Shown in pieces: positions 3,161-53,100 of a DNA stretch of 53,393 nt (its first letter is position 1; every line of letters begins with the position of its first letter). Source of the DNA: a virus. Lineage: Duplodnaviria; Caudoviricetes. The notes below the pieces were generated by a model. It was given only the letters and a program-made list of their open reading frames with translations. It was not told the origin of the DNA and did not search any database. The position numbers were made by a program, and so were the translations under genes. The DNA is taken from the IMG/VR virus record IMGVR_UViG_3300042939_000264, positions 1-53,393 of that record; one strand, written 5' to 3'.

Positions 3161-3688
3161 TTATTTGCTCCTTTCTCTCATGTAGATTTGAAACCACGCT
3201 GGCAACCTTGAGCTTATAAAAACATAAGAGGCGGCATCGGCGGGAATATCGTTAACGATAGCAGTTATGGCGGTGTAACACGCTGGATTTGGGAAAATCA
3301 TTTTCCCATTATCGTGCAACAGTTTTGTGATCTCGTCAATCAAAGAAAACAAATCTGGAAAGTTTTTCTTTATATGCTCGTTAGCTTCATCCCATATTTG
3401 GTCTGGCTTTCCCTTCACAAATCCATTGCCCCACCCCGGAACTTTCGCCCCGTTCTCAATATACATTTTAGCAAAACCAATCGGGTCTTCACTTGAAAGC
3501 ATCTCCGTAACTTCTTGGACTGGTCCGTGTGGATTGCCTAGCATGGAAAGCGCAGCGATTACCGCATTGCCAAATCTTCCGCTGCTCTTTGCTGATAGGC
3601 TTACAGCGATAGATGATGGGTTGTCCCTAAATGAAGATTCAAAGTGGCACCGAGATACTATTTGGAGCAATTTAGTTGCAGATTCCAT
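3161..3688 (-). CDS. Citrate synthase/citryl-CoA lyase-fold protein, catalytically divergent
   Basis: NPSS..V...AVIAALSMLGNPHG, VPGWGN..KGKPD, FPNPACY and FISSRLPAW align by eye to CS motifs NAST, G.LHG, PGFGH..Y...DPR, PNVDFY and F..AR..GW; start uncertain (3688, 3715 or 3742). Confidence 0.65.
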   Translation of the reverse strand: MESATKLLQIVSRCHFESSFRDNPSSIAVSLSAKSSGRFGNAVIAALSMLGNPHGPVQEVTEMLSSEDPIGFAKMYIENGAKVPGWGNGFVKGKPDQIWDEANEHIKKNFPDLFSLIDEITKLLHDNGKMIFPNPACYTAITAIVNDIPADAASYVFISSRLPAWFQIYMRERSK

Positions 3689-4199
3689 AATTTTTAGATA
3701 TTTTTTCAACTCCATTGAAATGCGCGAAATGTGCAATATCAACTAGTTCAATCCTATAGTTCTTGCATATTTCATATTGCTCTTTTGGAAAGTTTCTGCC
3801 TCCAGAAACAATGCTCCATATCTCTTCTATTCTAGCATCTATCTCTGCATAGCTGAATGATGGATATAATTCCTTTTCTATATCAAGTTGTATTGCTTGC
3901 TTGTCAATCAACCAATCTGCATTTTCAATTCCACAATTGATAAGCGACTTCTTTACTTCTTCCTTGTCCCTATCAATGATAATGATGTTAATATCTTTTA
4001 CTTCACGTTTTATATCATTGATTCTGAATACCTGTCCAGTATCTACACTCCCTATTCCTTGACTCATTTTCTCTATAGCATGCTCAAATGAATCGCTTCT
4101 TGCTATTAGCTCATGCTCGCACCGGAGTCCTGCCGCATTAAAGAACGACGCCAACCAAGCCGTCCTCGATCTTGGGAGGCTCAACACGGCGAAGCTCAT
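3672..4199 (-). CDS. Sulfotransferase-like (P-loop fold) protein
   Basis: N-terminal LPRSRTAWL resembles the 5'-PSB loop (PRSGTTWL); IIIDRD.EEV..SL resembles the 3'-PB motif. Confidence 0.6.
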   Translation of the reverse strand: MSFAVLSLPRSRTAWLASFFNAAGLRCEHELIARSDSFEHAIEKMSQGIGSVDTGQVFRINDIKREVKDINIIIIDRDKEEVKKSLINCGIENADWLIDKQAIQLDIEKELYPSFSYAEIDARIEEIWSIVSGGRNFPKEQYEICKNYRIELVDIAHFAHFNGVEKISKNYGICN

Positions 4200-5155: not shown

Positions 5156-5170
5156 TATCGGTAACGATAA

Positions 5171-5852: not shown

Positions 5853-7730
5853 TTACGATGTGGCAATAGAGTAGTCCCAATATCTTTCTTGGCAACATAA
5901 ATTTGTCGGGCACTCGTCTTGATCTTCTGGGCAGTCGCCAATCGGACTGTCCTCGTTGTTCTTGATATTCGCCATGATTCTAACGCGATCTACTGTGGCC
6001 ACACCTTCCAACGAGACTTTGATCTGAAACTCGCTTCCCTCGATTGATGGTATCTCTGCAATCTCGTTGCACTCTGATGGATCAGGGGTTGTGAACTTGT
6101 AGCGTTTGTAAAGGTTGCCTCCCACGCGAGGGGTGCATTCCGCCTTTAAAACTGGGGAGCATGGCGGACATCCAAAGGTTGTTTCTGGCTTTAACTCAGA
6201 CCAGCATGGGTTGCTATCGGACCTATACTCAACAGACGATGTGATGTTGCCGGGTATCTCGCTCATCCACATCTCTCCACCTGTGAGCCTTTTTCTTAGA
6301 AACTTGTTTGTCACTTCTGATTTGTCAAAATCATACCTTCCAGTTGTAAAGAAGCTCTTAATTTGGACTGTTCCATTCTGACCAAAATCATCTCCAATTT
6401 GGTTCGTGATTTCATATAGACGATTAATGTTGTCATCGTCAAAGCTAAATCCGAAACCCCGCTTCTCTGTATTAATCATTGCAGTAAGAAGCTGAGTTGG
6501 CCGTATGCCAGTCCAGATTCCATTCCAACGAAATGTGATCGCACTATCTGGGGCTGGCGTTGCGCTCTGATCTAGGTCAAGCACAACCATTCCTCTGTGA
6601 TACCTGTGCAGGCCGGGAGCGTCCGTTCTTTTTGTTTCTGGGGCTACCGTATTAATAAGATAGTTGTCTGAAAACATCGTGCTCGCAAACTGCTTCATCC
6701 ACGGCGTGTCTCTGCCAACCCATTTGTTAACTTCTCTGGAAAGTTTGCGGAGAGAAAAGTAGCTGTAGAACTCAGACTGACTATTGGAATAAAAAGCCCA
6801 TCCATCATGCGAGCGGAACCATAGCTCTGAATTTACCGTGGTCACATATGGACTCGCACAGCCTCTGCCAATAAGTGAGATAAGCTGGATATTTGATGTG
6901 TTCCATTCCACTCTAGGCAGACTTACATCCATCGAGAACGCGCCATTTTCACATAAGACCACCAATACTCCTTGCCCGCGCAGGTTGCCAGACAAGGTTG
7001 GCATAACCTTCATCCCTGTAATATTCCCCATGTTGGCTGGAGTTCCAAATGCGCCACCCTCTGCCCAATAGGTAATCTCGGTAAAGTTTTCTGTGTTTAG
7101 CGTATCGTTGAACCCATTGCCGTAGATAATGTCTGAGGCGTAGATCAGATTAAACTTGTCTGATACGAACACGCGACCAAACGCATATTCCATTACCGTT
7201 CCAATCGGCATCTTGTTGAGATACGGATTGAGTCTTCGCGCATTCTCTGACATCTTCCCGCCCCATGTAATCGCGTTCTGGTATCCGTTCTGGATATATA
7301 CACGATCTTCGGCTTGCACGAACCATGTGTGCATTAAGCTAGGGTCGTTCCAGCCGTTGTTTTGCTTGGACGGGTCTTCTATGCCGGGGATCAAATAGGC
7401 ATACGCAAGATTGTTTACTATCTTGAGAAAGTATATCTTCCCAGCTATTGAACAGATTATTCCGTCGTTCGTATCGAAGTTAGTTTTACGATATGGATAT
7501 GCCCCTTGGAAGTTACCGGTTTGAATATCGTTAACGATAGTCTCTGGCTGGTCTTCTCCTGCTACAATCTTAATCTCCCGTATGCTTGGTCGTGTCTTGT
7601 TTATTCCTCCACGGAATGTTCTGTTAACCGATTCACTAACATAGTTCTCAGGCAAATACGATGGATGTGTAGCGGCATCTTGGGCGACTACAGAAAGAAA
7701 TCCATCGAATACTGATCCTTCAGTTGCCAT
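5853..7730 (-). CDS. Putative tail nozzle / DNA-stabilisation protein
   Basis: 625 aa, beta-rich; size and position match podovirus nozzle genes. Confidence 0.6.
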   Translation of the reverse strand: MATEGSVFDGFLSVVAQDAATHPSYLPENYVSESVNRTFRGGINKTRPSIREIKIVAGEDQPETIVNDIQTGNFQGAYPYRKTNFDTNDGIICSIAGKIYFLKIVNNLAYAYLIPGIEDPSKQNNGWNDPSLMHTWFVQAEDRVYIQNGYQNAITWGGKMSENARRLNPYLNKMPIGTVMEYAFGRVFVSDKFNLIYASDIIYGNGFNDTLNTENFTEITYWAEGGAFGTPANMGNITGMKVMPTLSGNLRGQGVLVVLCENGAFSMDVSLPRVEWNTSNIQLISLIGRGCASPYVTTVNSELWFRSHDGWAFYSNSQSEFYSYFSLRKLSREVNKWVGRDTPWMKQFASTMFSDNYLINTVAPETKRTDAPGLHRYHRGMVVLDLDQSATPAPDSAITFRWNGIWTGIRPTQLLTAMINTEKRGFGFSFDDDNINRLYEITNQIGDDFGQNGTVQIKSFFTTGRYDFDKSEVTNKFLRKRLTGGEMWMSEIPGNITSSVEYRSDSNPCWSELKPETTFGCPPCSPVLKAECTPRVGGNLYKRYKFTTPDPSECNEIAEIPSIEGSEFQIKVSLEGVATVDRVRIMANIKNNEDSPIGDCPEDQDECPTNLCCQERYWDYSIATS

Positions 7731-9771: not shown

Positions 9772-9817
9772 ATTATCGTTAACGATAGGTTTAGTTTAGT
9801 TGGTGGCAAGTAATTTT

Positions 9818-10693: not shown

Positions 10694-11169
10694 AGATGTA
10701 GTTTCAATTCTTGCATGAACCTGTCATATTCTGACGGCTTCAAGTCGTTTTTCCGATTCGGGCTGACTGTGCGGTGATCAGTCACATCCTTTATCGTTAA
10801 CGATAGTTTCTTCATTCTGGGGAGAAGATACTCTATGGCTGATTCAATCTGTTCTTTCGTTAGAGGCTTTTCGTAGGTATCCCCGGCGAATGCCACCCCG
10901 AGGCTCCAGCTATTCAAGTCTGGCTTGCCCCTCCAGAAGCTCCTGCCTGCATGCCATGTCCTCTGGTTGTCGCCTGCCAGCACCGTGCGCTCTCCATTCT
11001 CTGCGATGATCACGTGGTAGCTGACCATGCTCTCTGGACGTGTGCACCAATCGACACTCCCTGCGTAGCTCCCTGATGTGTGGTGGAGGACTACAGCCTT
11101 GGGGGTGAGTATCCTTCCCCTAGAGAAGTTAGGGGTTTGCCGACTAACTTCTTTATACTTTGGCTTCAC
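10690..11169 (-). CDS. Endolysin, N-acetylmuramoyl-L-alanine amidase (Amidase_2)
   Basis: VLHHT, VSYH, TWHAG, N..SLGV and DHR.VSP.RK.D motifs; probable GTG start at 11169 overlapping the upstream TGA. Confidence 0.85.
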   Translation of the reverse strand: MKPKYKEVSRQTPNFSRGRILTPKAVVLHHTSGSYAGSVDWCTRPESMVSYHVIIAENGERTVLAGDNQRTWHAGRSFWRGKPDLNSWSLGVAFAGDTYEKPLTKEQIESAIEYLLPRMKKLSLTIKDVTDHRTVSPNRKNDLKPSEYDRFMQELKLHL

Positions 11170-11894: not shown

Positions 11895-14618
11895 TTATAG
11901 TCCGTAGGCGATTTCGACTGCATCCACGCTTGCCACCCAGCGCCATGTTTCACCAGCAATTCCGGTGACTTCCACGCGAAGGGCTTCCGTGGCTCCGACA
12001 TCGTATGCGCTCAAGGCAATGCTAGTGCCTGCTGCGTTATCGGAACCGATAGTGACGGGAGCATAGACTTCCGTGCAAGTGCCTGCGACATTCTTGAGCG
12101 CATACTGGCGCAGGTAGTGGGCTACTGCGGAGCCGTCGCTCTTGATGCCCGTGATGTTGATCGTGAGGCCGAGGACTTTCCCGCTGGGGATCGTGAGGCG
12201 GGTCGCGCTGCCGTCCAAAAATAGCTCGACTGCGGCGTTCGTCGTGGTCTTGTTCCGAAGAACGAACCGGGCGCGTTGGGCATCGCCTGCGGCTGCAAAG
12301 CCTCCAGAAGCATGGGACTGTTGCCCAAATCTATCTGCCAAACCACGGCGACCTCCTAAAATACTACCAATAGTTGCAGTAACAGAGTTTCCTTGCCCTG
12401 TTTCCCCTCCACCACCAATAAACCCTTCTTGTCCGCTTACCGCGTTAGAATGACCGCCAACAATGGCTGATCGGACGCCAGATGCCGCATTGCTCTGCCC
12501 GCCACCAATAAACGCATTTGCCTGCGAGGCATTATTGGATGAGCCGCAAACAACTCCAGAGTTTGTGAGTGAAGCTTGATTGCTTGATCCTGCTCCGATA
12601 AAAACAGAACCGGTTCCGCCCGTGCCAGTCACATTACTGCTGCCAGCACAAATTACGCTTGTCCCGTTTTCCGCGATACATTGATTGGATGATCCTCCGC
12701 CAATGAAATTGTCAATTCCATTACCGTTCGGATGACCAACGATATTTCCTGTTCCTCCGCAAATTATACCCCTCTGTGATCGAACTGTATTGTTTGTTCC
12801 AGAGCCAATAAATGAATTTGCCCCCAACGCTACTTGAGTGTTTAATGTTCTTGAAACTTGCAAGTCGATTGCATTGTTTCCCCTCGCATTCCCGCCAGTC
12901 GCCGTGCCGTCTGGTTTCGGGCCGAGGATGAACGCCCCCGTGCCTTTCGGCGTGAGGACGAGATCGGAATTAGTCGCGGTGGTGTTCTCGGAGAGGGTGA
13001 CATTCGTGCTGACGCTGTGACCTGTGAGGAGCGTTCCAGCGGTGATGTTGGTGGTGAAGTTGATCGCTCCGCCTCCAATGCTGGTTTCTACTTTGAATGT
13101 AGCTCCAGAGACTTCACGCACGAAGTAGTTCGTTGTCGTGTTGAGTCCTGCGCCACCCGTGAGCGCGGTGAAGCGGATTGGCTGTCCATTGGCGAATGCT
13201 GTTCCGGGTGCGGTAATTACATCCGTGCCTGCATCGCCCGTGATACCTGTGACGGAGACAATCGCATCTTCCACGATGAGTCCGCTGCCCTGCACAGTAA
13301 ACCCACCCGTCCCATCTGCGCGGGGGACTGCGTTGTCCACAGTTCCGACTGTTCCGCCGATACCTGTGATGTTGCCGCCAGAGACTGTGATGCCGACTGG
13401 GGTGAGTTGCTCCATCACACCCGTGCCTGCGGTGCTGCGGCCTACGATGCGGTTCGTGGCGATGCTGGTCGAGATGTCGGGTGTTGCGCCTCCCGAGCTT
13501 GTGAGCGGGGCGGTAGCGGTGACATTGGTGACTGCTGCGCCAGCGGTGGCGGTGAGTGTTCCTCCGGTAAGCGACAAGCCTACGCCTACGGTGATCTCTT
13601 CTGCTGCGCCGACTCCTGCGGTAGTCCGACCCAGCAGCCGGGCAGTATTCATCGTCAGCCCAGTCGTAGCGGTATACAGCCCTGCGCCGATCTTACCATT
13701 GAAGGCAGTCCAGTCTGAACTAGAGAGCGCACCGCGATTGGCTGCGCTTGCTGTGGGAATATTGAAGGTGTGGGTAGCGGCTGTGCTAGCAATGTTGAAG
13801 TCGGTGCCAGTAGTGCCAGTCGCAAAGAACTGAATTTGGTCGGTCAGACCATTGAGCGCGGCCAATCCCGTCGAGAAGGTGGTGATGATCTGGCTCTGGG
13901 TATTGCCTTCAGTATTCAGAGTGATCGTGTGCCCGCCCAAGCTGCTGCCAATCACGCGCACGGCCAAGCGGTCTGTGAGTGCGAGAGTGGTGCTAGCGGG
14001 GATGGCTACCGTGAGAAGGTGGATGTCTGAAGTGGTATTGGCGATAGTCGCCGCAGGGCTGGTCGTGCCGATCTGCGTGAAGGTGGCTCCGTCATACTTG
14101 TAGAGTTCCACCGCCAATTGCGGGTTGCCACTAGAGGTAAGGCAGTAAAGCTGAAAGGTGAAGTTGCCTTGCGGGATCAAGAGCCGATTCGGGTCGCCCG
14201 CATCCGTGATGAAGTAGGCGGTTGTATTGCCAGCGTTGATCGTAAAGTTGGTCTGCGCTGCGCCAGCAGGAACCTTGTTGATCTCGTAATACGGGTTACC
14301 AAGTATCGTGCCTTGGCTCACCGATCCGTTTAAGTAGTAGCTGACCGAGCTTCCTCCACCCGCTGCCACAGGGAAGTTCGCAATCGTGGCATCTCCCCGA
14401 ATATACTGATTTGCCAATCCATACCCAATCGCCACAGGACCGCTGACATCTTGGATGTTCAGAGTGCGCGTGGTCGTGGGGCTGATCGCGCTGGCTTCAA
14501 ACTTGAACCGCTTCGTCTTGTTCCCATCATCAAAGATCGTAAACTTGTTGTCGGGGAAGACTGGCGCACCCGGCGCGTTGTCGAGCTTACCTGTGAATGG
14601 ATTGAATTTGTAAGGCAT
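11895..14618 (-). CDS. Long tail fibre protein
   Basis: 907 aa, G/T/A-rich; GGG.SN repeats in the C-terminal third; mosaic base composition. Confidence 0.8.
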   Translation of the reverse strand: MPYKFNPFTGKLDNAPGAPVFPDNKFTIFDDGNKTKRFKFEASAISPTTTRTLNIQDVSGPVAIGYGLANQYIRGDATIANFPVAAGGGSSVSYYLNGSVSQGTILGNPYYEINKVPAGAAQTNFTINAGNTTAYFITDAGDPNRLLIPQGNFTFQLYCLTSSGNPQLAVELYKYDGATFTQIGTTSPAATIANTTSDIHLLTVAIPASTTLALTDRLAVRVIGSSLGGHTITLNTEGNTQSQIITTFSTGLAALNGLTDQIQFFATGTTGTDFNIASTAATHTFNIPTASAANRGALSSSDWTAFNGKIGAGLYTATTGLTMNTARLLGRTTAGVGAAEEITVGVGLSLTGGTLTATAGAAVTNVTATAPLTSSGGATPDISTSIATNRIVGRSTAGTGVMEQLTPVGITVSGGNITGIGGTVGTVDNAVPRADGTGGFTVQGSGLIVEDAIVSVTGITGDAGTDVITAPGTAFANGQPIRFTALTGGAGLNTTTNYFVREVSGATFKVETSIGGGAINFTTNITAGTLLTGHSVSTNVTLSENTTATNSDLVLTPKGTGAFILGPKPDGTATGGNARGNNAIDLQVSRTLNTQVALGANSFIGSGTNNTVRSQRGIICGGTGNIVGHPNGNGIDNFIGGGSSNQCIAENGTSVICAGSSNVTGTGGTGSVFIGAGSSNQASLTNSGVVCGSSNNASQANAFIGGGQSNAASGVRSAIVGGHSNAVSGQEGFIGGGGETGQGNSVTATIGSILGGRRGLADRFGQQSHASGGFAAAGDAQRARFVLRNKTTTNAAVELFLDGSATRLTIPSGKVLGLTINITGIKSDGSAVAHYLRQYALKNVAGTCTEVYAPVTIGSDNAAGTSIALSAYDVGATEALRVEVTGIAGETWRWVASVDAVEIAYGL

Positions 14619-14910: not shown

Positions 14911-14974
14911 ATATTAAAATTGGTTTGAGTAGTGAAGGATTGAACTTCTGCTACTCGTTATCGTTTCCGATAAT

Positions 14975-21055: not shown

Positions 21056-21087
21056 AGTTGAGTATTATCGTTAACGATAATCATAAG

Positions 21088-25157: not shown

Positions 25158-25220
25158 AGTTCTTTACACTATTCTCGCGGAAAATCTATTCTGCAAGCAC
25201 AATTTATCGGTAACGATAAT

Positions 25221-26043: not shown

Positions 26044-26069
26044 GCGCAGATTCGTTATCGTTACCGATA

Positions 26070-34022: not shown

Positions 34023-34039
34023 TTATCGTTAACGATAGA

Positions 34040-35023: not shown

Positions 35024-35370
35024 CATTATCGTTAACGATAATCCTGCTCGTCGGGTGTGCCCACATTGAGGAACCTGAGATAGCAGGGAAGTATAAGAAC
35101 GCCTGCCTGCCAGAGGCGATAATGATGACGAACGCCCTCAAGAAGTCAGGAGTGGACGCAAGGGTGCTAGGGATATACACCCCGAATCTAGGTCACGCGA
35201 TCTGCGTCTACCTCTATCCCCAAGGCAAGAACCAACTCTGGGGCTGGGATAGTTACTGGAAGAGCCTGAGACTCCGCGCCTACACAGACAACCCAGAAGG
35301 GGTGGCCAAAGCGTGGCTGCGCTGGACCCACCCAACAGATACCTTAACCCGCGCAATCTACATAGAATGA
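35011..35370 (+). CDS. Lipoprotein with papain/transglutaminase-like Cys-His-Asp motifs
   Basis: Lipobox LVG-C; NACLPEA, GHAICVY and WGWDS. Confidence 0.55.
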   Translation: MRFLALSLTIILLVGCAHIEEPEIAGKYKNACLPEAIMMTNALKKSGVDARVLGIYTPNLGHAICVYLYPQGKNQLWGWDSYWKSLRLRAYTDNPEGVAKAWLRWTHPTDTLTRAIYIE

Positions 35371-39347: not shown

Positions 39348-39998
39348 TTATCGTTCCCGATACTCATCCTCATTGCCTGCGCTTAACAATGCGCCCGCTT
39401 TCTGCACATTTTCACCCTCCGCATCGGCCTCGAAACTTGATTGTGAACCCTCCGCATCACTACCCTTTTTCGCCTCCGAATGTTGATAGTCAACACGGAC
39501 GCTTTGAACCTCAATTTCCTCTGCTTTGGACGGCGGGGCTATGTGCAAAGCCACCATTGCGTTCAGGCTCACGGCTTGCGTCGATGCGACATCTGCGCCC
39601 TTTAGCCCGTATGATGTTTCGGCAGCTTCCAAATACTTTTGGAACAGGTCGATCATCTCGCGCAGTTCCTTCACCGATCCTTTCACCTGATGCTCCGCAA
39701 TAGCCCTCCGCAACTTTTCCAAGGTATCGAACGCGAACAGATGGTGCTCCTCCACACCAGCGGTCCTTCTCTCCACGATTGTCTTATCTGTGGCGGCTTT
39801 CGCTTTAGCCAGAACCTCGTCCCTTTTGTCGAGCAGCTTCCGAATCGCCACTTGATTCTTCAGATAGGCAAGGCTCATCCCTCGCCCTCCGAACTCTTCC
39901 ATCGCGTGAACCTCGCGAACCGTTTTCCCGGCCATGAGGAGCCGCTCGATCAAATCCCAGTCCCACTTTGGGGCGCTGCCTGTTGTGCATTTAGCCAT
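39348..39998 (-). CDS. Putative terminase small subunit (N-terminal HTH plus helical oligomerisation region)
   Basis: KWDWDLIERLLMAGKTVREV... HTH, then long helices and a disordered tail; lone minus-strand gene. Confidence 0.45.
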   Translation of the reverse strand: MAKCTTGSAPKWDWDLIERLLMAGKTVREVHAMEEFGGRGMSLAYLKNQVAIRKLLDKRDEVLAKAKAATDKTIVERRTAGVEEHHLFAFDTLEKLRRAIAEHQVKGSVKELREMIDLFQKYLEAAETSYGLKGADVASTQAVSLNAMVALHIAPPSKAEEIEVQSVRVDYQHSEAKKGSDAEGSQSSFEADAEGENVQKAGALLSAGNEDEYRER

Positions 39999-40082: not shown

Positions 40083-40274
40083 ATGAGAGACACATCGAAA
40101 AGCCAAATCAAAAAGCTCATGCGCTTGCTTGAGTGGGCCGACACCTACTTGCAGGCAATGGAAAACTGCACCTCTGGCGGTATCGGTGACGATATTACTA
40201 GGCTACGCCAGCAGATTGAGCAGGTTCTTGAATGCGACCCCAACGCAATCAGGGAGGACATCTACCATGACTAG
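40083..40274 (+). CDS. Hypothetical protein
   Basis: 63 aa. Confidence 0.5.
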   Translation: MRDTSKSQIKKLMRLLEWADTYLQAMENCTSGGIGDDITRLRQQIEQVLECDPNAIREDIYHD

Positions 40275-40485: not shown

Positions 40486-42104
40486 TCGCTAAAATACTTG
40501 AAACACTAGACTTCGCCGATCCTGTCCGGCTCAACACCAAATACGGCTTGCGGATGGTTCGCAAGTCTCCGCTCTCTTTGGACTTCTGGGGAGCGTGGAA
40601 CATGGCTAGCGATTCCGAGAAGGCTGCATTCAAGAAGGCCGGATTCTCGTTAGGCAAATACCGAGAGGTTTGGGAGATGTCGTGGTGGAGCGATAAGAAC
40701 CTCCGCTTTAATCAACCAGAATGTCCGGGACAGATTATTCATGAACCCGAACCCGAACCCGTGGTGGAACTGCCCGAACTTCAGTTCCCCGAGAAGCTAT
40801 TCCCCTATCAGGTCGATAGCGTTCGCCGGGGTGTGGCTACCATGTCCAAGTATGGCCGCGTTCTACTCGGGCACGGCACAGGCATGGGCAAGACGGCCAT
40901 CGCACTAGCTATTGCTCGGGAGCGTGGGCGCAGAGTTGCTGTGATCTGCCCCCTTTCTATAGTAACGGATTGGTTTCGGCTTGCGAAATACCTTGGCGTG
41001 GAAGTCTATGAAGCGGCTGGATGGGAAAGAGTAAAGACTGGTAAGACTAAAATCGGTAATTGGACCGACAAAGAAAAGAAGAGGTTCGTTTACACTCTGC
41101 CCGAAGATTGTGATCTGGTCATTGACGAGGCCCACAAGGCCAAAGCCCCCGGCGCGACACAGAACTCTCTGCTCCTGCGCGATGCGGTTGACCAGAACCT
41201 CCCTTGCATTGCGTTATCGGCGACGATAGCGAGCGATCCAACTCAGTTGTGGGCGATGGGTATGTTCCTTGGCCTGCACTCGGGCGGATCGGATTACTAT
41301 CGCTTCCTCTCTAGGAATGGATGCTACAAGACCCAATGGGGAATGCAGTTCCGTGGTGGTAAGCCTATCCTCAAGAAGCTCCACAGTCAGATATTCCCCG
41401 AGCGTGGCAATAGGCTGCGCCCGATTGATGCGGGAGACGCATTCCCAGAGACTCTGATCGCCGCCCGTGCATTCGATATGGACTCGGCCAAGGACATTGC
41501 CAACGAGTATGACGAACTCTCTGCCCGTATTGAGGAGCTTCGCATGTCAGAGAACTTCATGGCAGACAAGCTCGCAGCTATCACCAAGGCTCGCCAGCGC
41601 ATTGAATTGTTGAAAGCCCCATCCATTGCGTCTGTGGCTAAAGACCTAATCGAGGAAGGTAACTCGGTATTCATTGCGGTGAACTTCACCGAGACCCGTG
41701 AGTTCCTCATGCAGGAGTTGAAAACCAAGTGTGCGATCTACGGCGGGCAGAAGGACATGGATCGGCGGGGTGCTATCGACAGCTTCCAGCGTGACGATTC
41801 CCGTGTCCTTGTGGGTATCACCCAAGCATGTCGCGAAGGTATCAGCTTGCACGATACCAAGGGGGAATTCCCACGCGTGGCTCTGATTAGCCCGACCTAC
41901 TCTGCCCTAGACCTGATCCAAGTATTGGGCCGCGTCCACCGTGCAGGCGGGAAGACAAAGAGCATTCAGTATATCGCCTACTGTTCAGGGGTGCCAGTCG
42001 AGGAAAGAATCTGCAAGAAGTTGAACGAAAAGATGGCAAACCTATCATCCATCATGGACGGCGACCTCGACACCGCCGTTTACTTGGATACAGAAAAAGT
42101 TTGA
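40482..42104 (+). CDS. SF2 (SNF2/DExH-like) helicase
   Basis: LFPYQ, GTGMGKT, IDEAH, LSAT, EGISL and QVLGRVHRAG motifs. Confidence 0.9.
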   Translation: MIAKILETLDFADPVRLNTKYGLRMVRKSPLSLDFWGAWNMASDSEKAAFKKAGFSLGKYREVWEMSWWSDKNLRFNQPECPGQIIHEPEPEPVVELPELQFPEKLFPYQVDSVRRGVATMSKYGRVLLGHGTGMGKTAIALAIARERGRRVAVICPLSIVTDWFRLAKYLGVEVYEAAGWERVKTGKTKIGNWTDKEKKRFVYTLPEDCDLVIDEAHKAKAPGATQNSLLLRDAVDQNLPCIALSATIASDPTQLWAMGMFLGLHSGGSDYYRFLSRNGCYKTQWGMQFRGGKPILKKLHSQIFPERGNRLRPIDAGDAFPETLIAARAFDMDSAKDIANEYDELSARIEELRMSENFMADKLAAITKARQRIELLKAPSIASVAKDLIEEGNSVFIAVNFTETREFLMQELKTKCAIYGGQKDMDRRGAIDSFQRDDSRVLVGITQACREGISLHDTKGEFPRVALISPTYSALDLIQVLGRVHRAGGKTKSIQYIAYCSGVPVEERICKKLNEKMANLSSIMDGDLDTAVYLDTEKV

Positions 42105-42791
42105 CAACACGTTAGGCCGTGCTATTTAGCGGAGGCTAGCCTAACATGACCGAGGGCCACGGAGGACTTACTCTCCCCCGTGGCTCTCAGCGTTTCTAGA
42201 GGGGAAGGGGAGCCGACCGCTACGCAATCGACTCCCCACACAACAGCCAAACAAGGCTGCGCTACTCTAGCGTTATCGGTAACGATACTCAAGCATTTTC
42301 TTCACTAGCTCTACACTTGTTTCCACTAGTGCTACACTAGCGTCTGCTATGCAGACCAGCGTAGGTGGAGTCTAGTGAGAGAAGAGTGAGCCAAATTGTT
42401 TTTGGCAGGGTGAACCCGAGCGACAAGTCACCCAAGGTATGGGGTAACTTGCCAAGCGTGAGACCACTATGTTTTTGTATAGGTGTGTCACCGTCGCTTC
42501 CGATCCTCGTCCAGAGGCCTACCTTTGCCTAGACTAGCCTAATATCGTTGGCTGATCGCAAGTCGCCCATAAGGGCAGCATTAAGATGGCAGGATGTCAT
42601 TGCCGTTCCATCTCCTCTCCTTCGCTGGCACTTATAGGCCTATGCCCCGGTGCGTCGTTCACGCATTCCCGCCAGCTACACGATTCAATGTTGGCAAAAA
42701 GGATTGAGCCTGTGGAGTGAACGATACTCACACAGGCCCAATTTTGAAAGGCTCATGCCGAAGATCGTTCCCTCGGTATTGAATACCAGAG

Positions 42792-43601: not shown

Positions 43602-44564
43602 TTATTTCTCCTTCAAGAATGGCACCCATTGATCTTCAGCGGGGTCATACCAAGATTTCTGTGCTAGGTCAATAAGCAAGTGGTGAGGCTCCAGCTTGGC
43701 CGGGATGCTTCGTAGCACCTCCGAGTTGCTAGTGTTGCCTGCATTAAGACAAAGGTAGCGATGTCCTAATGGAGCTTGACCCTTACCTTGCTCTGCCTTC
43801 ACTCTGTCTCTCACCTCGCTGGAGGATAGCTTCTCTTCTTTGGCCTTCTCTAGTAGGTCTAGCTTCTTAGTCTCTGTGAGGTCAGCGTTGCCGATCTCGC
43901 GGTAGACTGTGAAGGGTAGCATAGGGTCTCTCTTTGCAGCAGGGAACGCCCTACAAGCCCGTGCGTAGCCGCTAACCGTGCTGTAGCTCTTCTTGAACTG
44001 CGAGCAGAGTTGGTTCACCACATCTTCATGCCCAGCGTTCTCAAGGGCGACCACCGAATCTCCGATGATCCATTGTGCGCCTGACTCTAAGGCGAGGCCG
44101 AAGCCAAAGGCTCCAACCCAGTCCTGCATAGTGACATCCCCGCGAGGAACGCATTGGGTCATACCTGCGCCCAAGTCGAACTTCTTACTGAAGCTACCGA
44201 GTTCGATACCTTGTGCTGAGTTGACTAGCTGGCTCTTCTCGCACTCCACTACAGGCTCATCGTCTTCGATCTCTTCTAGCTCATCATCCTCTGGCTCATC
44301 TGCCAAGTCAGCCTCTAGTTCGTTGGCATACTCCAAGTCAGAGAGGATGCGTTCAAAAACCATGACCACCTCATCCGGCACATCGTCGCCGGGATACTCG
44401 TCGTTCATGGCCATCAAGAAGAGCTTCTTCACCTTGTCCAGCGTCCACTTGATTCCCTTGTATTCTTGTAGTGCCCACTCTACCAACTCCTGCTGGTAGA
44501 CTTTGGCTGTGACTATCTCGCCCGCCCGATCATCGAGAGGGGACATTAACATGAGTTCTTTCAT
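43602..44564 (-). CDS. Putative DNA-binding protein with an LmbU-like domain
   Basis: W.....L.....QWIIGD......SYSTVSGYARACRAFP..KR...LPFT.YREI resembles the LmbU-type core. Confidence 0.45.
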   Translation of the reverse strand: MKELMLMSPLDDRAGEIVTAKVYQQELVEWALQEYKGIKWTLDKVKKLFLMAMNDEYPGDDVPDEVVMVFERILSDLEYANELEADLADEPEDDELEEIEDDEPVVECEKSQLVNSAQGIELGSFSKKFDLGAGMTQCVPRGDVTMQDWVGAFGFGLALESGAQWIIGDSVVALENAGHEDVVNQLCSQFKKSYSTVSGYARACRAFPAAKRDPMLPFTVYREIGNADLTETKKLDLLEKAKEEKLSSSEVRDRVKAEQGKGQAPLGHRYLCLNAGNTSNSEVLRSIPAKLEPHHLLIDLAQKSWYDPAEDQWVPFLKEK

Positions 44565-44773: not shown

Positions 44774-45596
44774 CCCAAGGAATCTCTGGTTGGTTCTCAA
44801 GGTCTTCGGGATCACCGCCAAGTTGGAGGTCGTTTCCGGCCTGCTCTACGCACTTCGCGAATGGCGTATCAAAGCCTTTGGCAAGGTAATGCTCATAGAG
44901 TTTGGTCAATGCTGGCTTGCCTACCTCTCCAAGTTTCTTGCCTTTGTTGCTACCACTCGGCACGATGGCTGATGCCCAGTCTTTTGGATCGGGTGTCTCT
45001 TCTTTCTTCGGAAGGATAGTAATGCCCTTCTTGTTGGCTTCGATGAAGACAGAGGACACATAGCTACGAAGGGTCTCTTCGTTGTATGCGAGCGACGTGT
45101 AGCCCAACCGGACCAGCTTGTTACAGAGCATATGCAACTCAACGATCTTCTCGATAGCTTCCACAGGGTCTTTCACCATCTGGACTACCTGAGTGAAGGT
45201 TGTGTTGGTTTGGGTAGAAACGGGTGTGTTTGCGGGCATCTCCTGATTATCGTCACCGATAACGATGTTCGCGCTCTTGGTTACTTTGATCAGGTCGCGG
45301 TCTACCTTAGTCCCATCCTTCTTGCTGTAGCTCTCATGCTCAAGTGAGACTCCATGCAGACCATGCTTGCTGCGGGTGCTAACGAGCGTGACCATTTGCT
45401 TCTCTAGGCGGGCCGGGTCTTCCTCTCGGTCGAAGAACTTGAGTCCGTAGGTATCCCCGTCGATCTCAATCTCTCCACCTTGAATCTTAAACTCGCCTTT
45501 CGGCCCTTTGAATGTGCGGGGTTCCCACAGTTTTGTGATCTTGCCCGTGACTTTCTTGATGATGTCTTTCTGTTCTATGTTTTCTAGTTGTTTCAT
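44766..45596 (-). CDS. Putative OB-fold single-stranded DNA-binding protein
   Basis: N-terminal VTGKITKLWEPRTF OB-fold pattern; acidic/aromatic tail EIPWDE; next to an exonuclease. Confidence 0.55.
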   Translation of the reverse strand: MKQLENIEQKDIIKKVTGKITKLWEPRTFKGPKGEFKIQGGEIEIDGDTYGLKFFDREEDPARLEKQMVTLVSTRSKHGLHGVSLEHESYSKKDGTKVDRDLIKVTKSANIVIGDDNQEMPANTPVSTQTNTTFTQVVQMVKDPVEAIEKIVELHMLCNKLVRLGYTSLAYNEETLRSYVSSVFIEANKKGITILPKKEETPDPKDWASAIVPSGSNKGKKLGEVGKPALTKLYEHYLAKGFDTPFAKCVEQAGNDLQLGGDPEDLENQPEIPWDE

Positions 45597-47086: not shown

Positions 47087-47143
47087 GTGATTGACTATCG
47101 GTAACGATAACGAGTAGCCCGCAGAGCTAGGATTCATGCGGGT

Positions 47144-50100: not shown

Positions 50101-53100
50101 TGAATTTCAAGTAAACTCGCATCAAGCGGCTGCTTTTTAACCATCCACTCCAAGTTCCTTTCAGGTTTTTTGTAAAATAACTTCCTTGGACTCTACCGTA
50201 TGGGCTTGTGCTTGTATCGAAAACAGTAAATTCTTTTTCCGAGGAACTACCATGAATCGCTGGTGTATCATACCCCGCCTTCTTCGCCGCCTCATCCACC
50301 ATCCTCTGGGCAGTCTCCATATCCCCGCGCTCTACCGCTGCAAGATACTCGGCATCCATCGCAGTTAGATCGTCGATTATCTTTCTAGCCCCGCCTTCAC
50401 GCGAGATAGCCTCTCCTGCCTTGTATCGGTCAAGTGCTGCGGTAAAGACCGAGATAGCGTCTCTATCGCTGATGTTGAACTTAAATCCTAGCTTGTTCAG
50501 GAATCGCTTAATAGCGTCCAGCATACTGCGCCAAGCGGGAGCCTGCTCTTCGTTAATGAACTGATCCACGAAGGCTCTGACCATCTTCTCCTCCAAGCGG
50601 ATTTCGCCTGTCTCTTTGTTGTATGCCGTCTCGACATACGCATCTAATTCGGCTCTAGCTTCGGGAGATAGCGATGCAATAAACTGATCGAATGCTGCGC
50701 GGAACTCTGGATCGCCGAAGATGTAGTGTCCGAGTTCGTGTGTAATCGTATCGCGGATGTCGTCGTTCTTATTCAGGTAAGCGAGGTTGACGATGATCTC
50801 TCCCGACTCAGGGATATATGCTGCCTTGAACTCAAAGTCTTTATCCGTGCTGTCGTTGACGATTGTAAAGCCCTCTGGGATTTCCCCACCGAACATATCG
50901 TATGCGACATCGAAGACTTCCTCGAAAGTGTATTGCTGGTCTGGAGGCGTGATTAAGATGCCTTCCGGTGTAGTGTCGATTGCTTGGCGGCGAATGTCTG
51001 GAGATGTTGGCTGCGGAATAAATCGTGCGCTATACCAATTTGAAAGATTTGGAGGTATTTCAATTGGGTCAATTGACTGAATATTTGTTAAAGGATACCC
51101 ATATTTTTTCTCGCCAGATTTAATGTCGAATTTAGATCGCTCCTCAACAAGGTGTTTGTCTTGATCTGCTCTAAATTCATTTGCATTATTGTATACAATT
51201 GGCTCTCCAATATCTGCATATCCAACTAAAGTTGCCTTACCCTTACCAGTTCTTACAATGCCAATTCGCTGACCTACATATCGACGAAGACTATCTGTAT
51301 CCCTTGTCTCAATTGTTTTTTCTCCAGAAAGAATTTGGTCAGTAAAATTCTGCGTCTTGTCGTTTATGTTAATCCCAATTGTTGGATATTGATCCGCAGC
51401 AGTCTTCCTAGCTCCCTTGCCCTTTACCTGCTTCAAATCTCTTGCCTCGACAACCTGCGTCTCGCCTGTCCTCTCGTTCTTTACAGAGTAATACTGCTCG
51501 CCTAGCTCACGCTCTGTTGCGGACTGCGGAATCACCTCTTGGATTGTGTAAGTCTGCGGAGAACGCCCTAGCTTTACGCGGCTTCCTACTGCAATCTCCG
51601 CTGGAACCTCTGGAGCAGGCGCGGCTTCTGGAGTGGGTGCGGTTGGTGCGGCGGGTTGGTAGACATACAAGTCGCCTTGCTTGGTGTAGCCTTCGGGGAG
51701 TGGGACATTATTAGATTCTACGACTACGGCAGATACTGGTTGAGGGCTTACATCTTTAATAAATCCTTCAGATTGGAACGCTGGACCTGTTCTAACTCTG
51801 CCATTTTCTACTGTGTAGAATGTTCCTTTCTGTGAAACCTTAATATCATTACCCTCTATATCCTTCCATACAACAGGATCGGCTTCTGGAGTTATTGTTT
51901 CAAAAAGTCGGGAGCGATACTTTGGCAATAACTCATTGTATCGTGCCTCATCTTTTTTAGAGAACTTAACGCCCTTCACTTTACTTTGCGCTTGTCCTCG
52001 CCTTTCCATCAAGTTCTTTAGTTCAGCGAACTCGGATTCCTCTACAGGAGCAGGCGTGATAGCGGGAGCTTCTGCTGGCGCTGGCGTTACGGGTGCGGCC
52101 TCTCCAGCGGGCGTTATCGTTTCCGATACTGGCGCGGTCGTTACTGTGGGAGCTTCTGCTGTGGGTGCAGGCTCAACTGGCGCGGCGATCTCTCTGGCGA
52201 GGCGGGCTTGCTCGGTTTCTACGGTTTCGCCAGATTGCTTCTTGAGCGTGGAAAGTTCTGTCTCTACCTTCTTAATCGCCGTTGATAGCTCTTGTCCCTC
52301 TGGAGTATTGGGATTAATGCTAGATAGCGCAGAGCGGAGGTTATCAATCGCATTCTCCTTCTTGGTAATCTCGTCCACGATAACCTTGCTAGTCGTATCG
52401 GTTGGCGATACAGTTAGCTGCCTTGCCATTTGAGTTGATTGCTTCTCGATCTTGCGCTCGGCTTGCTGCTCTGGCGTCAGCACTTCTACCGCGCCAGCCA
52501 CACCGCCAAGAATAGCGGCAGGCCCGACAGCCATGCCAACTGCTTGCGGGACACCAGCGAATGTATCGACATCTGCCCCGAGATTTTGCAATGCAATATT
52601 GGTTGCGACCTTCTCTTGCCCTTCCTGCAATGTTTCAATAGGAACCTCGCCAGCAATTCCTTTAAGCCCTCCCTTGATCACATCCTTAATTGATCGTTCG
52701 GACACTTCCTTGCCCGTTCTGGTAAGCATACGGGTGATGATTCGTTCGGCACCTGTGCTAGCTGCTGCCGCCCCCAAACCCGCAGACAAGAAGATTTGCG
52801 GCAGGTTCTCCCCAAATGTAGCCTGCGCTTCAGTCGCTTTGCTCCTAGCCTCATCTTCTGGCACACCTTGATTAATCAAGTAATCGTAGGAGCCTTGGTA
52901 GATTTCTCCTTTAGCCGTGCCCATCCCTTGCGCCGCGCCAACGCCAGCCTGCAACGCCATCATCCCCCCACGGGTCAACTGCGCTGCCTTGCCAGCCAAT
53001 CCAGCGGCCAAGTTCGGGATCATGTAGCCTGCGGTCTGCGCCAAGGTTTCAGCGGGAGCCATCTTGAATGCTTCAAGACCAGCGAGAAACTTGTCCGTCA

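What the first reader, a model, noticed from the sequence alone, without database searches (positions are those of the whole stretch)
3247..52128. Genome-wide array of 24 TATCG-K-NN-M-CGATA palindromes, retained inside coding sequence
Seen: 24 exact TATCG-N4-CGATA sites counted by eye (possibly incomplete), at 3247, 5156, 7526, 9774, 10792, 12038, 14959, 18114, 21066, 23225, 25205, 26056, 28501, 29905, 30758, 34024, 35027, 39349, 40181, 41215, 42274, 45248, 47096 and 52115. With 10 fixed bases, about 0.05 sites are expected in 53 kb at uniform composition. Spacers: TTAA x7, GTAA/TTAC x7, TTTC x2, GAAC x2, TTGA x2, TCAC/GTGA x2, TTCC, GCGA. In all 48 half-sites the sixth base is T or G, and the two halves vary independently. 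That fits a dimeric dsDNA-binding protein better than an RNA hairpin. Thirteen copies lie in unrelated CDSs, encoding peptides such as IVND, IGND, LSLTI and VSETI. Spacing is 0.85-5 kb (mean about 2.2 kb) across all modules. Inference: a genome-coating binding system, either a stoperator-like global silencing network or a structural/self-marking site set (by analogy to parS, matS or SlmA/Noc sites, possibly mimicking a host motif). I do not recognise the consensus.
Basis: partly seen in the sequence, partly recalled or inferred. Interest (0 to 1): 0.92.

Follow-up and report, generated by a model that had tools for sequence, protein, structure and literature searches.

The report
Dispersed 14-bp palindrome array in phage
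An uncultured phage family keeps about 15 to 32 evenly spread, letter-perfect copies of one short DNA palindrome per genome, even inside genes, which looks like a set of docking sites for a phage DNA-binding protein whose job is still unknown.

Summary
The window, a complete 53.4-kb phage record, has exactly 24 TATCG-N4-CGATA sites (0.01 expected) and only 3 one-mismatch copies.

- **Clade-wide:** the motif occurs in 80 of 80 related loci and in 25 of 25 near-complete relatives (15-32 sites each; reversed control 0-1).
- **Selected as DNA:** all 29 long alignments across a site keep the ten fixed bases while the spacer drifts. In one gene, 77 of 79 orthologues keep the site, holding silent codon positions fixed. 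Synonymous shuffles leave 0.47 in-gene sites against 13 observed.
- **Placement:** spacing is more even than chance (P about 0.0005). Eleven sites fill tiny gene junctions, often 0-3 nt before ATG, and some overlap sigma70-like promoters.
- **DNA, not RNA:** the two half-sites vary independently and the RNA hairpins would be weak.

My reading is a docking-site array for a phage-encoded dimeric DNA-binding protein. The best candidate is the core 320-aa protein at 43602-44564, which has a ParB/Noc-like DNA-binding fold, a near-invariant domain and a predicted homodimer. The XRE protein at 25693-26007 is the main rival. Binder and function remain unproven.

The closest published analogue is the unexplained 17-bp palindrome array of Cluster O mycobacteriophages. 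This scan had already noted the same motif in related genomes.

The parts
3247..3260 (.). site TATCGTTAACGATA, inside ORF 3161-3742, 87 nt upstream of the start of gene 1936-3159
5156..5169 (.). site filling a gene junction: stop of 5171-5350 is 1 nt away, ATG of 4196-5155 is 0 nt away
   Evidence: kept in 3 of 3 long alignments
7526..7539 (.). site inside gene 5853-7730 (peptide TIVNDI)
   Evidence: kept in 5 of 5 relatives and 77 of 79 orthologues with silent positions fixed
9774..9787 (.). junction site 2 nt upstream of ATG of 9190-9771; TTGCCA lies 16 nt upstream of its TATCGT
10792..10805 (.). site inside amidase gene 10690-11280 (LSLTI), 98 nt upstream of the next gene start
12038..12051 (.). 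site inside gene 11895-14618
14959..14972 (.). junction site 2 nt after the stop of 14975-15262
18114..18127 (.). site inside gene 17041-18333
   Evidence: kept in 3 of 3 long alignments
21066..21079 (.). junction site overlapping a promoter-like TTGACT-N16-GATAAT, 10 nt upstream of ATG of 18572-21055
23225..23238 (.). site inside + strand gene 21462-23339
25205..25218 (.). junction site 2 nt after the stop of 25221-25493
26056..26069 (.). site between divergent genes: abuts ATG of 26070-26465 (+) and lies 12 nt upstream of the -35 of the XRE promoter
28501..28514 (.). site 2 nt upstream of ATG of tail-spike gene 26642-28498, at the divergent junction with the replication module
29905..29918 (.). 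junction site: 1 nt after the stop of the O-like initiator gene, 3 nt before ATG of DnaB gene
30758..30771 (.). site inside DnaB gene 29922-31148
34024..34037 (.). junction site 1 nt after the stop of 33837-34022
35027..35040 (.). site 3 nt after the stop of 34805-35023, within the start of ORF 35011-35370
39349..39362 (.). site overlapping the stop codon of gene 39348-40022
40181..40194 (.). site inside ORF 40129-40485
41215..41228 (.). site inside helicase gene 40482-42104
   Evidence: kept in 4 of 4 long alignments
42274..42287 (.). site in the ORF-poor stretch 42105-42900
45248..45261 (.). site inside gene 44766-45596, 690 bp upstream of the ParB-like gene start
47096..47109 (.). junction site between the 2043-aa gene and ORF 46714-47076
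52115..52128 (.). only site inside the 2043-aa gene 47144-53275
43602..44564 (-). candidate binder A: 320-aa core protein with a ParB/Noc-like helix-turn-helix DNA-binding domain (about residues 113-260), an acidic linker and a small C-terminal beta domain
25693..26007 (-). candidate binder B: 104-aa XRE-family helix-turn-helix protein with its own promoter TTGACT-N16-TATACT, 8 nt before ATG

Best explanation
The 24 sites are docking sites on double-stranded DNA for one phage-encoded, two-fold symmetric DNA-binding protein. Each half of the dimer reads one (AT)TATCG-K arm, and the A/T-rich centre is read only loosely.

The most likely binder is the 320-aa core protein at 43602-44564. It has a ParB/Noc/KorB-type helix-turn-helix domain but no detectable CTPase domain. 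The array spreads this protein over the whole genome, about one site per 2 kb.

At the sites that overlap promoters or abut start codons it would shut off transcription initiation. At the sites inside genes it would act as a roadblock, a bridging point or a loading point. In this it resembles KorB on plasmid RK2 or Noc on the Bacillus chromosome.

Shown here: the sites, their conservation, the selection on their DNA sequence, their even spacing, and their placement at junctions and promoters. Inferred: that a protein binds them, which protein it is, and what the binding does.
For: 1. **Exactness and number.** There are 24 perfect sites against 0.01 expected and only 3 one-mismatch sites against about 1 expected.
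2. **Clade-wide presence.** The motif is in 80 of 80 related loci (420 sites in 1.09 Mb) and in 65 further loci (283 sites in 0.89 Mb). It is in 5 of 5 and 20 of 20 near-complete relatives, with 15-32 sites each and a reversed-pattern control of 0-1.
3. **Selection on the DNA itself.**
   - 29 of 29 blastn alignments of 100 nt or more (65-76% identity) that span a site keep all ten fixed bases while the spacer changes.
   - In gene 5853-7730, 77 of 79 orthologues keep the site. Ile is ATC in 79 of 79 and Asp is GAT in 79 of 79. The third base T of the preceding codon is kept in 77 of 79 although the residue varies (T/S/N/F). Neighbouring invariant Gly codons use all four third bases.
   - Synonymous shuffles give 0.47 in-gene sites against 13 observed.
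4. **Symmetric DNA reading.** The flanks extend the dyad to about ATTATCGTTAACGATAAT, with no other conserved element within 45 nt (139 sites). Bases 6 and 9 are K and M in 98.5% of 454 sites and vary independently (P = 0.25).
5. **Placement.**
   - 11 of 24 sites are not wholly inside a called gene, although about 95% of the genome is coding.
   - Several sites fill junctions of 16-20 nt.
   - 38 of 139 sites have a called gene start 0-25 nt downstream.
   - Promoter-like sequences lie within 100 bp of 25 of 139 sites, against 15.0 +/- 3.6 for random positions.
6. **Even spacing.** The coefficient of variation of the gaps is 0.45-0.68 in six genomes, against about 0.94 for random placement. 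A null that respects gene junctions gives P = 0.0005.
7. **Candidate binder at 43602-44564.**
   - It is present in 5 of 5 and 20 of 20 near-complete relatives.
   - Residues 113-260 are almost invariant in 32 sequences that are only 58-93% identical overall.
   - The best Foldseek hits are Noc and ParB DNA-binding domains (E 0.08-0.5, probability about 0.99).
   - 12 of the 14 best VIA-align rows are ParB, Spo0J or Noc, at Z 7.9-10.0 over 97-131 residues.
   - Of 66 remote homologues, 4 carry DUF1016_N and 1 carries HTH_ParB.
   - A homodimer model scores 0.74 against a best control of 0.00. That mark was reached by 20 of 30 proteins solved as pairs and 1 of 23 solved as single chains. The runs agree in at least 86% of contacts and the partner's pLDDT is at least 80.
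Against: - No binding experiment or protein-DNA model was possible.
- The fold match is middling. The tool itself warns that Z below about 13 for helical domains may reflect only a common arrangement, and no Foldseek hit reaches E 0.001.
- Pfam, PHROGs and a PDB sequence profile find nothing for this protein. In particular no ParB N-terminal CTPase domain is detected.
- As I recall, known ParB-family sites are contiguous palindromes with a conserved centre. Here the centre is loose, which is the geometry of Cro/cI-type operators and favours the XRE rival.
- No site sits at a fixed place upstream of the ParB-like gene. The nearest upstream site is 475-3800 bp away in six genomes.
- Presence or absence cannot separate the two candidates: XRE is also present in 5 of 5 and 19 of 20 relatives.
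- The co-variation test failed for lack of data. Contigs of distant homologues could not be fetched.
- One lineage (L020/L021) has lost the site in gene 5853-7730 and has 1 site in 11.5 kb. The array is therefore dispensable at least there.
Confidence: 0.45

Rival explanations
1. The binder is the small XRE-family protein (25693-26007). The sites would then form a classical Cro/cI-type operator network expanded to the whole genome, repressing promoters and blocking transcription.
For: - A 5-N4-5 operator with an A/T-rich, loosely read centre is the geometry of the phage 434 and P22 repressor operators. This is recalled knowledge, not tested here.
- In 3 of 6 genomes a site lies 12 nt upstream of the -35 of the XRE promoter, directly on the start of the divergent gene.
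- XRE is a core gene, present in 5 of 5 and 19 of 20 relatives. The one miss is a 93%-complete fragment.
- Its recognition helix is largely conserved.
Against: - The site next to XRE is absent in the other 3 of 6 genomes, where the same promoter pair is kept.
- XRE orthologues are only 42-58% identical.
- One helix position that contacts bases in phage 434 repressor (alignment recalled from memory) varies A/Q/S across genomes whose motif is identical.
- The palindrome TTGAC-NN-GTCAA at its promoter occurs once only and reads as two back-to-back -35 boxes.
Confidence: 0.25
2. A host protein binds the sites, for example a nucleoid-associated protein or a global regulator, and the phage has recruited it.
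For: The motif is invariant across phages whose own proteins have diverged to 40-80% identity. The host is unknown.
Against: - The 120 stretches returned by a scan of one genome per 185,579 species for the 16-mer core were single sites spread over many phyla, of which 80 were listed and inspected.
- Five of those genomes, searched whole, hold 3-13 sites in 1-6.9 Mb, with spacers that do not follow K-W-W-M.
- A small host regulon would escape both tests.
Confidence: 0.1
3. The sites are recognition sequences of an enzyme rather than a regulator. Candidates are a nickase, a nuclease used in replication, recombination or packaging, or a modification enzyme.
For: - The all-or-none exactness (24 perfect against 3 near copies) is more typical of enzyme recognition sites than of operator sets.
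- An HNH-like ORF lies at 25448-25690.
- Three of 66 remote homologues of the ParB-like domain are fused to DNA methyltransferase domains.
Against: - No methyltransferase or site-specific nuclease other than the HNH ORF was found among the ORFs scanned.
- A symmetric cutter acting on 24 sites would fragment the phage's own genome.
- Half-sites alone are not enriched: 72 TATCG, of which 24 are in full sites.
Confidence: 0.08
4. The palindrome is itself a promoter element, supplying a -10 box (TATCGT or GATAAT) for leaderless transcripts. It would give many short transcription units, as in T7-like phages.
For: - Some sites supply the -10 box of a good promoter ending 8-10 nt before ATG: 21066, 26056, 9774 and 28501, plus relatives.
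- The density of one per 2.2 kb resembles T7 promoter density (recalled).
Against: - No -35 or other partner element is conserved at any fixed distance.
- A -35 match of 5 of 6 or better is found for only 8% of start-abutting orientations, against 4% of the others.
- The motif is symmetric, so it would fire both ways.
- Sites deep inside long genes (7526, 18114, 41215, 52115) have no downstream start to serve.
Confidence: 0.07
5. The sites work as RNA hairpins, for processing, translational control or termination.
For: The sequence can form a 5-7 bp stem with a 4-nt loop, and one junction site folds better than all 200 shuffles (z = -5.5).
Against: - Of five hairpins folded, three give only -3.6 to -4.7 kcal/mol and two are stronger (-5.2 and -11.7); four do not clearly beat shuffles.
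- The arms never covary: they are invariant in 139 + 703 sites.
- Bases 6 and 9 obey complementary classes yet are not paired more often than chance (0.626 against 0.603).
- No T-run follows the sites.
- Sites occur in genes on both strands.
Confidence: 0.03

Closest known systems
17-bp palindromic repeats of Cluster O mycobacteriophages (Corndog and relatives; PMC4351075, passages read)
   Same: - Invariant inverted-repeat arms around a short variable centre.
- Tens of copies spread through the genome: 34 in Corndog plus 3 one-mismatch sites, against 24 plus 3 here.
- Many copies are intergenic and about a third lie inside genes.
- The array is conserved across the whole cluster.
- The phages are not obviously temperate.
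- The authors predict a dimeric DNA-binding protein, state that the function is unknown, and note ParB-like-domain proteins in those genomes.
   Different: - The sequence (TGTTCGG-N3-CCGAACA) and arm/spacer lengths differ, and the phage lineage and host are unrelated, so this is an analogue and not a relative.
- Cluster O sites are denser towards one genome end, whereas these are evenly spread.
- This work adds evidence of selection on silent codon positions, and many sites here abut start codons.
KorB and its OB operators on IncP plasmid RK2 (PMC11790492, abstract seen; site number and sequence recalled)
   Same: - A ParB-family helix-turn-helix protein binds a short palindrome at a dozen places on a mobile element.
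- Some of those places are next to promoters and some far from any.
- It silences genes at a distance.
   Different: - KorB has a CTPase domain, works as a sliding clamp and partners KorA and IncC. No CTPase domain, KorA-like partner or ParA-like partner was detected here.
- The OB centre is conserved, whereas here the centre is loose.
Noc and its binding sites on the Bacillus chromosome (structures 6y93, 7nfu and 7ol9 matched; biology recalled)
   Same: - The site is a 14-bp palindrome, scattered at many places.
- The binder is a ParB-family protein.
- Noc gives the best fold matches to the candidate binder.
   Different: Noc is a cellular protein with a CTP switch and a membrane-targeting helix, and it acts in placing the cell-division site. 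None of this was tested or detected here.
Stoperators of Cluster A mycobacteriophages (L5 gp71; recalled, and discussed in the passages of PMC4351075 read)
   Same: - Some 20-30 near-identical sites are spread through all modules.
- Many are squeezed into very short intergenic gaps.
- They are bound by one phage protein that blocks transcription.
   Different: Stoperators are asymmetric 13-bp sites with a fixed orientation relative to transcription, and they belong to temperate phages with an immunity repressor. The sites here are palindromic, about half lie inside genes, and I found no lysogeny genes.

Membership tests
Stoperator/operator network of Cluster A mycobacteriophages | Asymmetric site with one orientation relative to transcription (recalled) | tested here: not met
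   The site is a perfect dyad, and the flanks are symmetric as well.
Stoperator/operator network of Cluster A mycobacteriophages | Temperate phage with an immunity repressor and an integrase or partition system | tested here: inconclusive
   Pfam and PHROG scans of about 100 ORFs found no integrase, ParA or ParB N-domain. Many ORFs have no family at all.
Stoperator/operator network of Cluster A mycobacteriophages | Sites confined to short intergenic gaps | tested here: not met
   13 of 24 sites lie wholly inside called genes.
Cluster O-type dispersed palindrome arrays (a kind, not a homologous family) | Invariant inverted arms, variable centre, tens of copies, few near-copies | tested here: met
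   24 perfect and 3 one-mismatch sites. Corndog has 34 and 3.
Cluster O-type dispersed palindrome arrays (a kind, not a homologous family) | Copies both between and inside genes, conserved across the phage cluster | tested here: met
Cluster O-type dispersed palindrome arrays (a kind, not a homologous family) | Same sequence (TGTTCGG-N3-CCGAACA) or related phage | tested here: not met
   The motif is different. Three searches of 50,697 phage records found nothing: megablast with window bases 1-25000 and tblastn with two conserved virion proteins.
ParB/parS-type systems (ParB, Noc, KorB, SopB, VirB) | ParB-type helix-turn-helix DNA-binding domain in the binder | tested here: inconclusive
   - Fold matches reach Z 7.9-10.0, with 12 of the top 14 rows from the family.
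- Foldseek E values are 0.08-0.5.
- 5 of 66 remote homologues carry DUF1016_N or HTH_ParB.
- The protein itself has no Pfam hit.
ParB/parS-type systems (ParB, Noc, KorB, SopB, VirB) | N-terminal ParB/Srx CTPase domain | tested here: inconclusive
   Pfam gives no ParBc hit at E up to 0.01. Model residues 1-95 form a helical domain that matches no ParB N-domain in the rows shown. This is a negative from searches only.
ParB/parS-type systems (ParB, Noc, KorB, SopB, VirB) | Palindromic site bound by a dimer | tested here: inconclusive
   The site is a palindrome and a homodimer is predicted (0.74 against 0.00). Binding was not tested.
ParB/parS-type systems (ParB, Noc, KorB, SopB, VirB) | ParA-type ATPase partner (partition systems only) | tested here: inconclusive
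   No ParA or CbiA family was found among the scanned ORFs.
Cro/cI (XRE) operators | XRE-family helix-turn-helix protein encoded beside its operators at a divergent promoter pair | tested here: inconclusive
   This arrangement is present in 3 of 6 genomes and absent in the other 3.
Intrinsic terminators / structured RNA | Stable stem with compensatory changes, followed by a T-run | tested here: not met
   Of five hairpins folded, three give -3.6 to -4.7 kcal/mol and two are stronger (-5.2, -11.7). There is no covariation and no T-run.

The most novel reading that the evidence does not exclude
A phage-encoded ParB/Noc-fold protein without a CTP switch uses about 24 evenly spaced, strictly conserved loading sites to coat, bridge or silence the entire genome of a non-temperate phage. 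This would be a virus-made chromosome-organising system. It would also explain the long-unexplained Cluster O palindrome arrays as one instance of a general phage strategy.
Probability: 0.2. Interest if true: 0.8.

Novelty: new variant of a known kind. Interest (0 to 1): 0.62.

Why it matters
Dispersed, letter-perfect palindrome arrays in phages that do not look temperate have been known since the Cluster O mycobacteriophages (2015), and their function is still unexplained.

This clade is abundant and uncultured: more than 300 related contigs and 686 homologues of one core protein. It shows the same kind of array with much stronger evolutionary evidence. Sites hold their positions across genomes, silent codon positions are frozen, and spacing is even.

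The clade also supplies two concrete candidate binders that can be made and tested in vitro without growing the host. If not, the array still marks a conserved and essential-looking process in phage biology that has no name yet.

Tried and rejected
- **Close cultured relatives.** Megablast of 25 kb and tblastn of two conserved virion proteins against 50,697 phage records found nothing.
- **Host search.**
  - The window has no tRNA genes.
  - Five of those genomes, searched whole, were at background level.
  - A broader phylum-wide count was not run. It would have little power to detect a small regulon.
- **Literature.** Six spellings of the motif found only two unrelated papers, which use it in oligonucleotides. 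This covers the open library only, and supplements were closed.
- **XRE operator idea.** I first read TTGAC-NN-GTCAA at the XRE promoter as XRE's own operator, and so as evidence against XRE as the binder. I withdrew this when one search showed that it is two back-to-back -35 boxes.
- **Co-variation test** (do distant homologues of the ParB-like protein sit in phages with other palindromes?).
  - I obtained 207 representatives and saw varied recognition helices.
  - P0123 retrieved only main-clade contigs.
  - P0124, P0142 and P0271 found nothing in viral contigs.
  - P0142 and P0271 found nothing in metagenome contigs.
- **Site-poor lineage.** Using L020/L021 to find a missing gene failed because only 7-11 kb contigs exist.
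- **Candidate binder searches.** A PDB sequence-profile search returned 0 hits. The viral structure library returned only uncharacterised proteins. Atlas hits were weak leads only.
- **Autoregulation.** No fixed site lies upstream of the ParB-like gene.
- **Rows dropped.** In one search I counted only alignments of 100 nt or more (29). The 10 shorter ones (25-75 nt) can be matches between any two sites. In one search, exact duplicates of a site plus its flanks were dropped before counting.

Full report
**What the window is.** The window is a complete IMG/VR virus record of 53,393 bp whose two ends repeat 127 bp. About 95% of it is coding by my crude ORF calls.
- Genes run on the minus strand from 1 to 28.5 kb (virion genes, tail spike, amidase).
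- They run on the plus strand from 28.6 to 42.1 kb (O-like initiator, DnaB, helicase).
- They run on the minus strand again from 42.9 to 53.3 kb (exonuclease and a 2043-aa polyvalent protein with an ADP-ribosyltransferase domain).
- Most virion proteins match no PHROG or Pfam family.
- No record in 50,697 deposited phages resembles the window, by DNA or by two conserved proteins.
- I found no integrase, ParA or tRNA.

**The observation.**
- Allowing one mismatch adds only 3 sites where about 1 is expected. The set is all-or-none.
- The flanks extend the dyad to roughly ATTATCGTTAACGATAAT. Over 139 sites from six genomes, oriented by local gene direction, nothing else is conserved within 45 nt on either side.

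**It is a property of a whole phage clade.**
- A conserved virion protein (5853-7730) retrieved 200 and then 313 related contigs, of which 80 were kept each time.
- The motif is in 80 of 80 loci of the first set, with 420 sites in 1.09 Mb. The 65 new loci of the second set hold 283 sites in 0.89 Mb.
- It is the commonest 5-Nx-5 palindrome in nearly every locus.
- Twenty-five near-complete relatives hold 15-32 sites each. The same pattern read backwards occurs 0-1 times.
- One lineage, the two identical contigs L020/L021, has only 1 site in 11.5 kb.

**The DNA sequence itself is under selection.**
- Among blastn alignments between the window and five relatives, 29 are 100 nt or longer and span a site, at 65-76% identity. 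All 29 keep the ten fixed bases, and the four central bases differ freely. Ten shorter alignments were set aside because any two sites match each other.
- In gene 5853-7730 the site is intact in 77 of 79 orthologues; the two exceptions are L020/L021.
- Within that site the Ile codon is ATC in 79 of 79 and the Asp codon is GAT in 79 of 79.
- The third base of the preceding codon is T in 77 of 79 although the residue there is T, S, N or F.
- Invariant glycines a few codons away use GGA, GGC, GGT and GGG.
- Shuffling synonymous codons within each gene 300 times leaves 0.47 in-gene sites on average (maximum 2), against 13 observed.

**Where the sites sit.**
- Eleven of 24 are not wholly inside a called gene, where about 1.2 would be expected from the coding fraction.
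- Several fill the whole gap between two genes: stop, 1-2 nt, site, 0-3 nt, ATG. Examples are 5156, 9774, 28501 and 29905; site 26056 abuts the ATG of the plus-strand gene 26070-26465.
- Across six genomes, 38 of 139 sites have a called start 0-25 nt downstream, and 29 of those are within 8 nt.
- Some sites supply the -10 box of a good sigma70-like promoter that ends 8-10 nt before the ATG. Examples are TTGACT-N16-GATAAT at 21066 and TTGACA-N18-TATCGT at 26056.
- Promoter-like sequences lie within 100 bp of 25 of 139 sites, against 15.0 +/- 3.6 for random positions. Part of that excess is made by the site's own -10-like hexamers.
- Most sites have no such partner, and no -35 is conserved.
- The XRE gene has its own promoter, TTGACT-N16-TATACT, 8 nt before its ATG. 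Most starts lack a Shine-Dalgarno sequence. This hints at a host that uses leaderless or SD-poor messages.

**Spacing.**
- Gaps range from 832 to 5019 bp (mean 2219 bp).
- The coefficient of variation is 0.54, against 0.94 for random placement (P about 0.001). No gap as large as the observed minimum occurred as a minimum in 20,000 simulations.
- All five complete relatives show the same pattern (CV 0.45-0.68, P at most 0.014). These genomes share ancestry, so they are not independent.
- A null that draws 11 sites from gene junctions and 13 from coding sequence still gives P = 0.0005.

**DNA or RNA?**
- Over 454 non-duplicate sites, 98.5% have K at base 6 and M at base 9. The combinations are independent (244, 61, 106 and 36; P = 0.25). 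Complementary pairs make up 0.626 of sites, against 0.603 expected.
- The arms never vary, so there is no covariation to support a stem.
- Five sites folded as RNA give -3.6 to -5.2 kcal/mol for the hairpin alone, and four of the five do not clearly beat shuffles.
- The central two bases are A-rich on the coding strand (GAAA 63 against TTTC 3). This follows the genome's strand skew and fits a centre that only needs to be A/T.
- Together these point to a symmetric protein reading two arms on duplex DNA, with centres about 10 bp apart.

Two recognisable DNA-binding proteins are core genes.

*Candidate A: the 320-aa protein at 43602-44564.*
- It is present in 5 of 5 and 20 of 20 near-complete relatives.
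- It has 686 homologues, none with a name or a Pfam domain.
- In 32 sequences that are 58-93% identical overall, residues 113-260 are almost invariant, while the N-terminal domain and the acidic linker drift.
- An AlphaFold model (mean pLDDT 78) finds Noc and ParB DNA-binding domains first in Foldseek (E 0.08-0.5, probability about 0.99).
- In the VIA-align second look, 12 of the best 14 rows are ParB, Spo0J or Noc, with Z 7.9-10.0 over 97-131 residues. SopB, KorB and VirB appear lower, at Z 4.3-5.7. The tool warns that such Z values for helical domains are not decisive.
- Atlas leads point the same way: ParB HTH/DUF1016_N, DUF3102 and DUF6192, at scores 0.89-0.92.
- Of 66 remote homologues found with a profile, 4 carry DUF1016_N, 1 carries HTH_ParB, and 3 are fused to DNA methyltransferase domains.
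- A homodimer of residues 110-320 is predicted with a score of 0.74, against a best control of 0.00. That mark was reached by 20 of 30 proteins solved as pairs and by 1 of 23 solved as single chains. The runs agree in at least 86% of contacts and the pLDDT is at least 80. My own alignment was used, so those calibration counts hold only roughly.
- No ParB N-terminal CTPase domain is detected.

*Candidate B: the 104-aa XRE protein at 25693-26007.*
- It is present in 5 of 5 and 19 of 20 relatives. The miss is a 93%-complete fragment.
- A palindrome site sits 12 nt upstream of its -35 in 3 of 6 genomes. In the other 3 the same promoter pair is kept without the site.
- Its recognition helix is mostly conserved, but one position varies A/Q/S.

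The 5-N4-5 geometry with a loose A/T centre is, from memory, that of the 434 and P22 operators, which favours XRE. The near-invariant domain and the known habit of ParB-family proteins of using many dispersed palindromes favour candidate A. Presence or absence cannot separate them.

The test that could separate them was out of reach. It asks whether distant homologues with different helices come with different palindromes.

**Host factor?**
- The 120 stretches returned by a scan of one genome per 185,579 species for the 16-mer core were single sites scattered over many phyla, of which 80 were listed and inspected.
- Five of those genomes hold 3-13 sites in 1-6.9 Mb, with unconstrained spacers, against 24 in 53 kb here.
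- A small host regulon cannot be excluded.

**Comparison with what is known.**
- The closest published case is the Cluster O mycobacteriophage array. Corndog has 34 copies of TGTTCGG-N3-CCGAACA with invariant arms, plus 3 one-mismatch sites. About a third of the copies are inside genes. The array is conserved in all five genomes, the phages are not obviously temperate, a dimeric binder is predicted, and the function is unknown (passages of PMC4351075).
- KorB on RK2 is the best-understood case of a ParB-family protein acting from dispersed palindromes (abstract of PMC11790492).
- Stoperators differ in being asymmetric and oriented.
- No paper in the open library contains this motif. Supplements could not be read.
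- This scan had already noted the same motif in related genomes. Two follow-ups called it docking sites for an unidentified protein or for a small helix-turn-helix regulator. I treated these as leads. My own tests agree on the sites, and they add the ParB/Noc-like candidate and the promoter overlaps.

**Verdict.** It is a clade-wide, position-conserved, evenly spaced array of exact palindromes that is selected as DNA. It is most likely a set of docking sites for a phage-encoded dimeric DNA-binding protein. It is a new variant of a known but unexplained kind.

Noticed in passing
window 26008-26069: A divergent promoter pair has two back-to-back -35 boxes forming TTGACAAGTCAA. TTGACT-N16-TATACT ends 8 nt before the XRE ATG, and TTGACA-N18-TATCGT ends at the ATG of 26070-26465. 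Both look like promoters for leaderless or near-leaderless messages. The -35 pair is kept in 6 of 6 genomes.
   Followed up: partly
window, all gene starts: Most start codons have no Shine-Dalgarno sequence. The upstream regions are A/C-rich, and only a few genes (for example 1936-3159, 43259-43600 and 45593-46354) have AGGAG. This may help to narrow down the unknown host.
   Followed up: no
window 31668-32223: Three adjacent small, very lysine-rich proteins (62, 48 and 74 aa). An ORF in the scanned set, probably the 62-aa protein, matches DUF6496. They are 74-82% identical across relatives, so they are among the best-conserved genes. They may be non-specific nucleic-acid binders.
   Followed up: no
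L020 and L021 (IMG/VR contigs of 7.2 and 11.5 kb): This is the only lineage seen with almost no sites: 1 in 11.5 kb, and the site in the 5853-7730 orthologue has been lost. A complete genome of this lineage could show which gene goes with the array.
   Followed up: partly
related loci L005-L084 and L220-L284: The central two bases of the spacer are strongly A-rich on the coding strand: GAAA 63 against TTTC 3, TAAA 37 against TTTA 1, GAAC 31 against GTTC 0. I read this as strand skew acting on a centre that only needs to be A/T, but a weak polarity of the sites is not excluded.
   Followed up: partly
window 21462-23339 (+): A 625-aa gene on the plus strand lies inside the minus-strand virion module. 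It is 75% identical in 5 of 5 relatives and has no Pfam or PHROG family.
   Followed up: no
window 47144-53275 (-): A 2043-aa polyvalent protein with an ART-PolyVal ADP-ribosyltransferase domain (Pfam E 5e-11) and weak ASCH and metalloprotease hits. It holds only one palindrome site in 6.1 kb, which makes the largest gap in the array.
   Followed up: no
window 3161-3742 (-): A 193-aa ORF inside the virion module matches the C-terminal domain of citrate synthase (Pfam E 1.2e-6, just above the cut-off).
   Followed up: no
window 1-127 and 53267-53393: An exact 127-bp terminal repeat. It may simply be the overlap of a circular assembly rather than true genome ends (inference).
   Followed up: no
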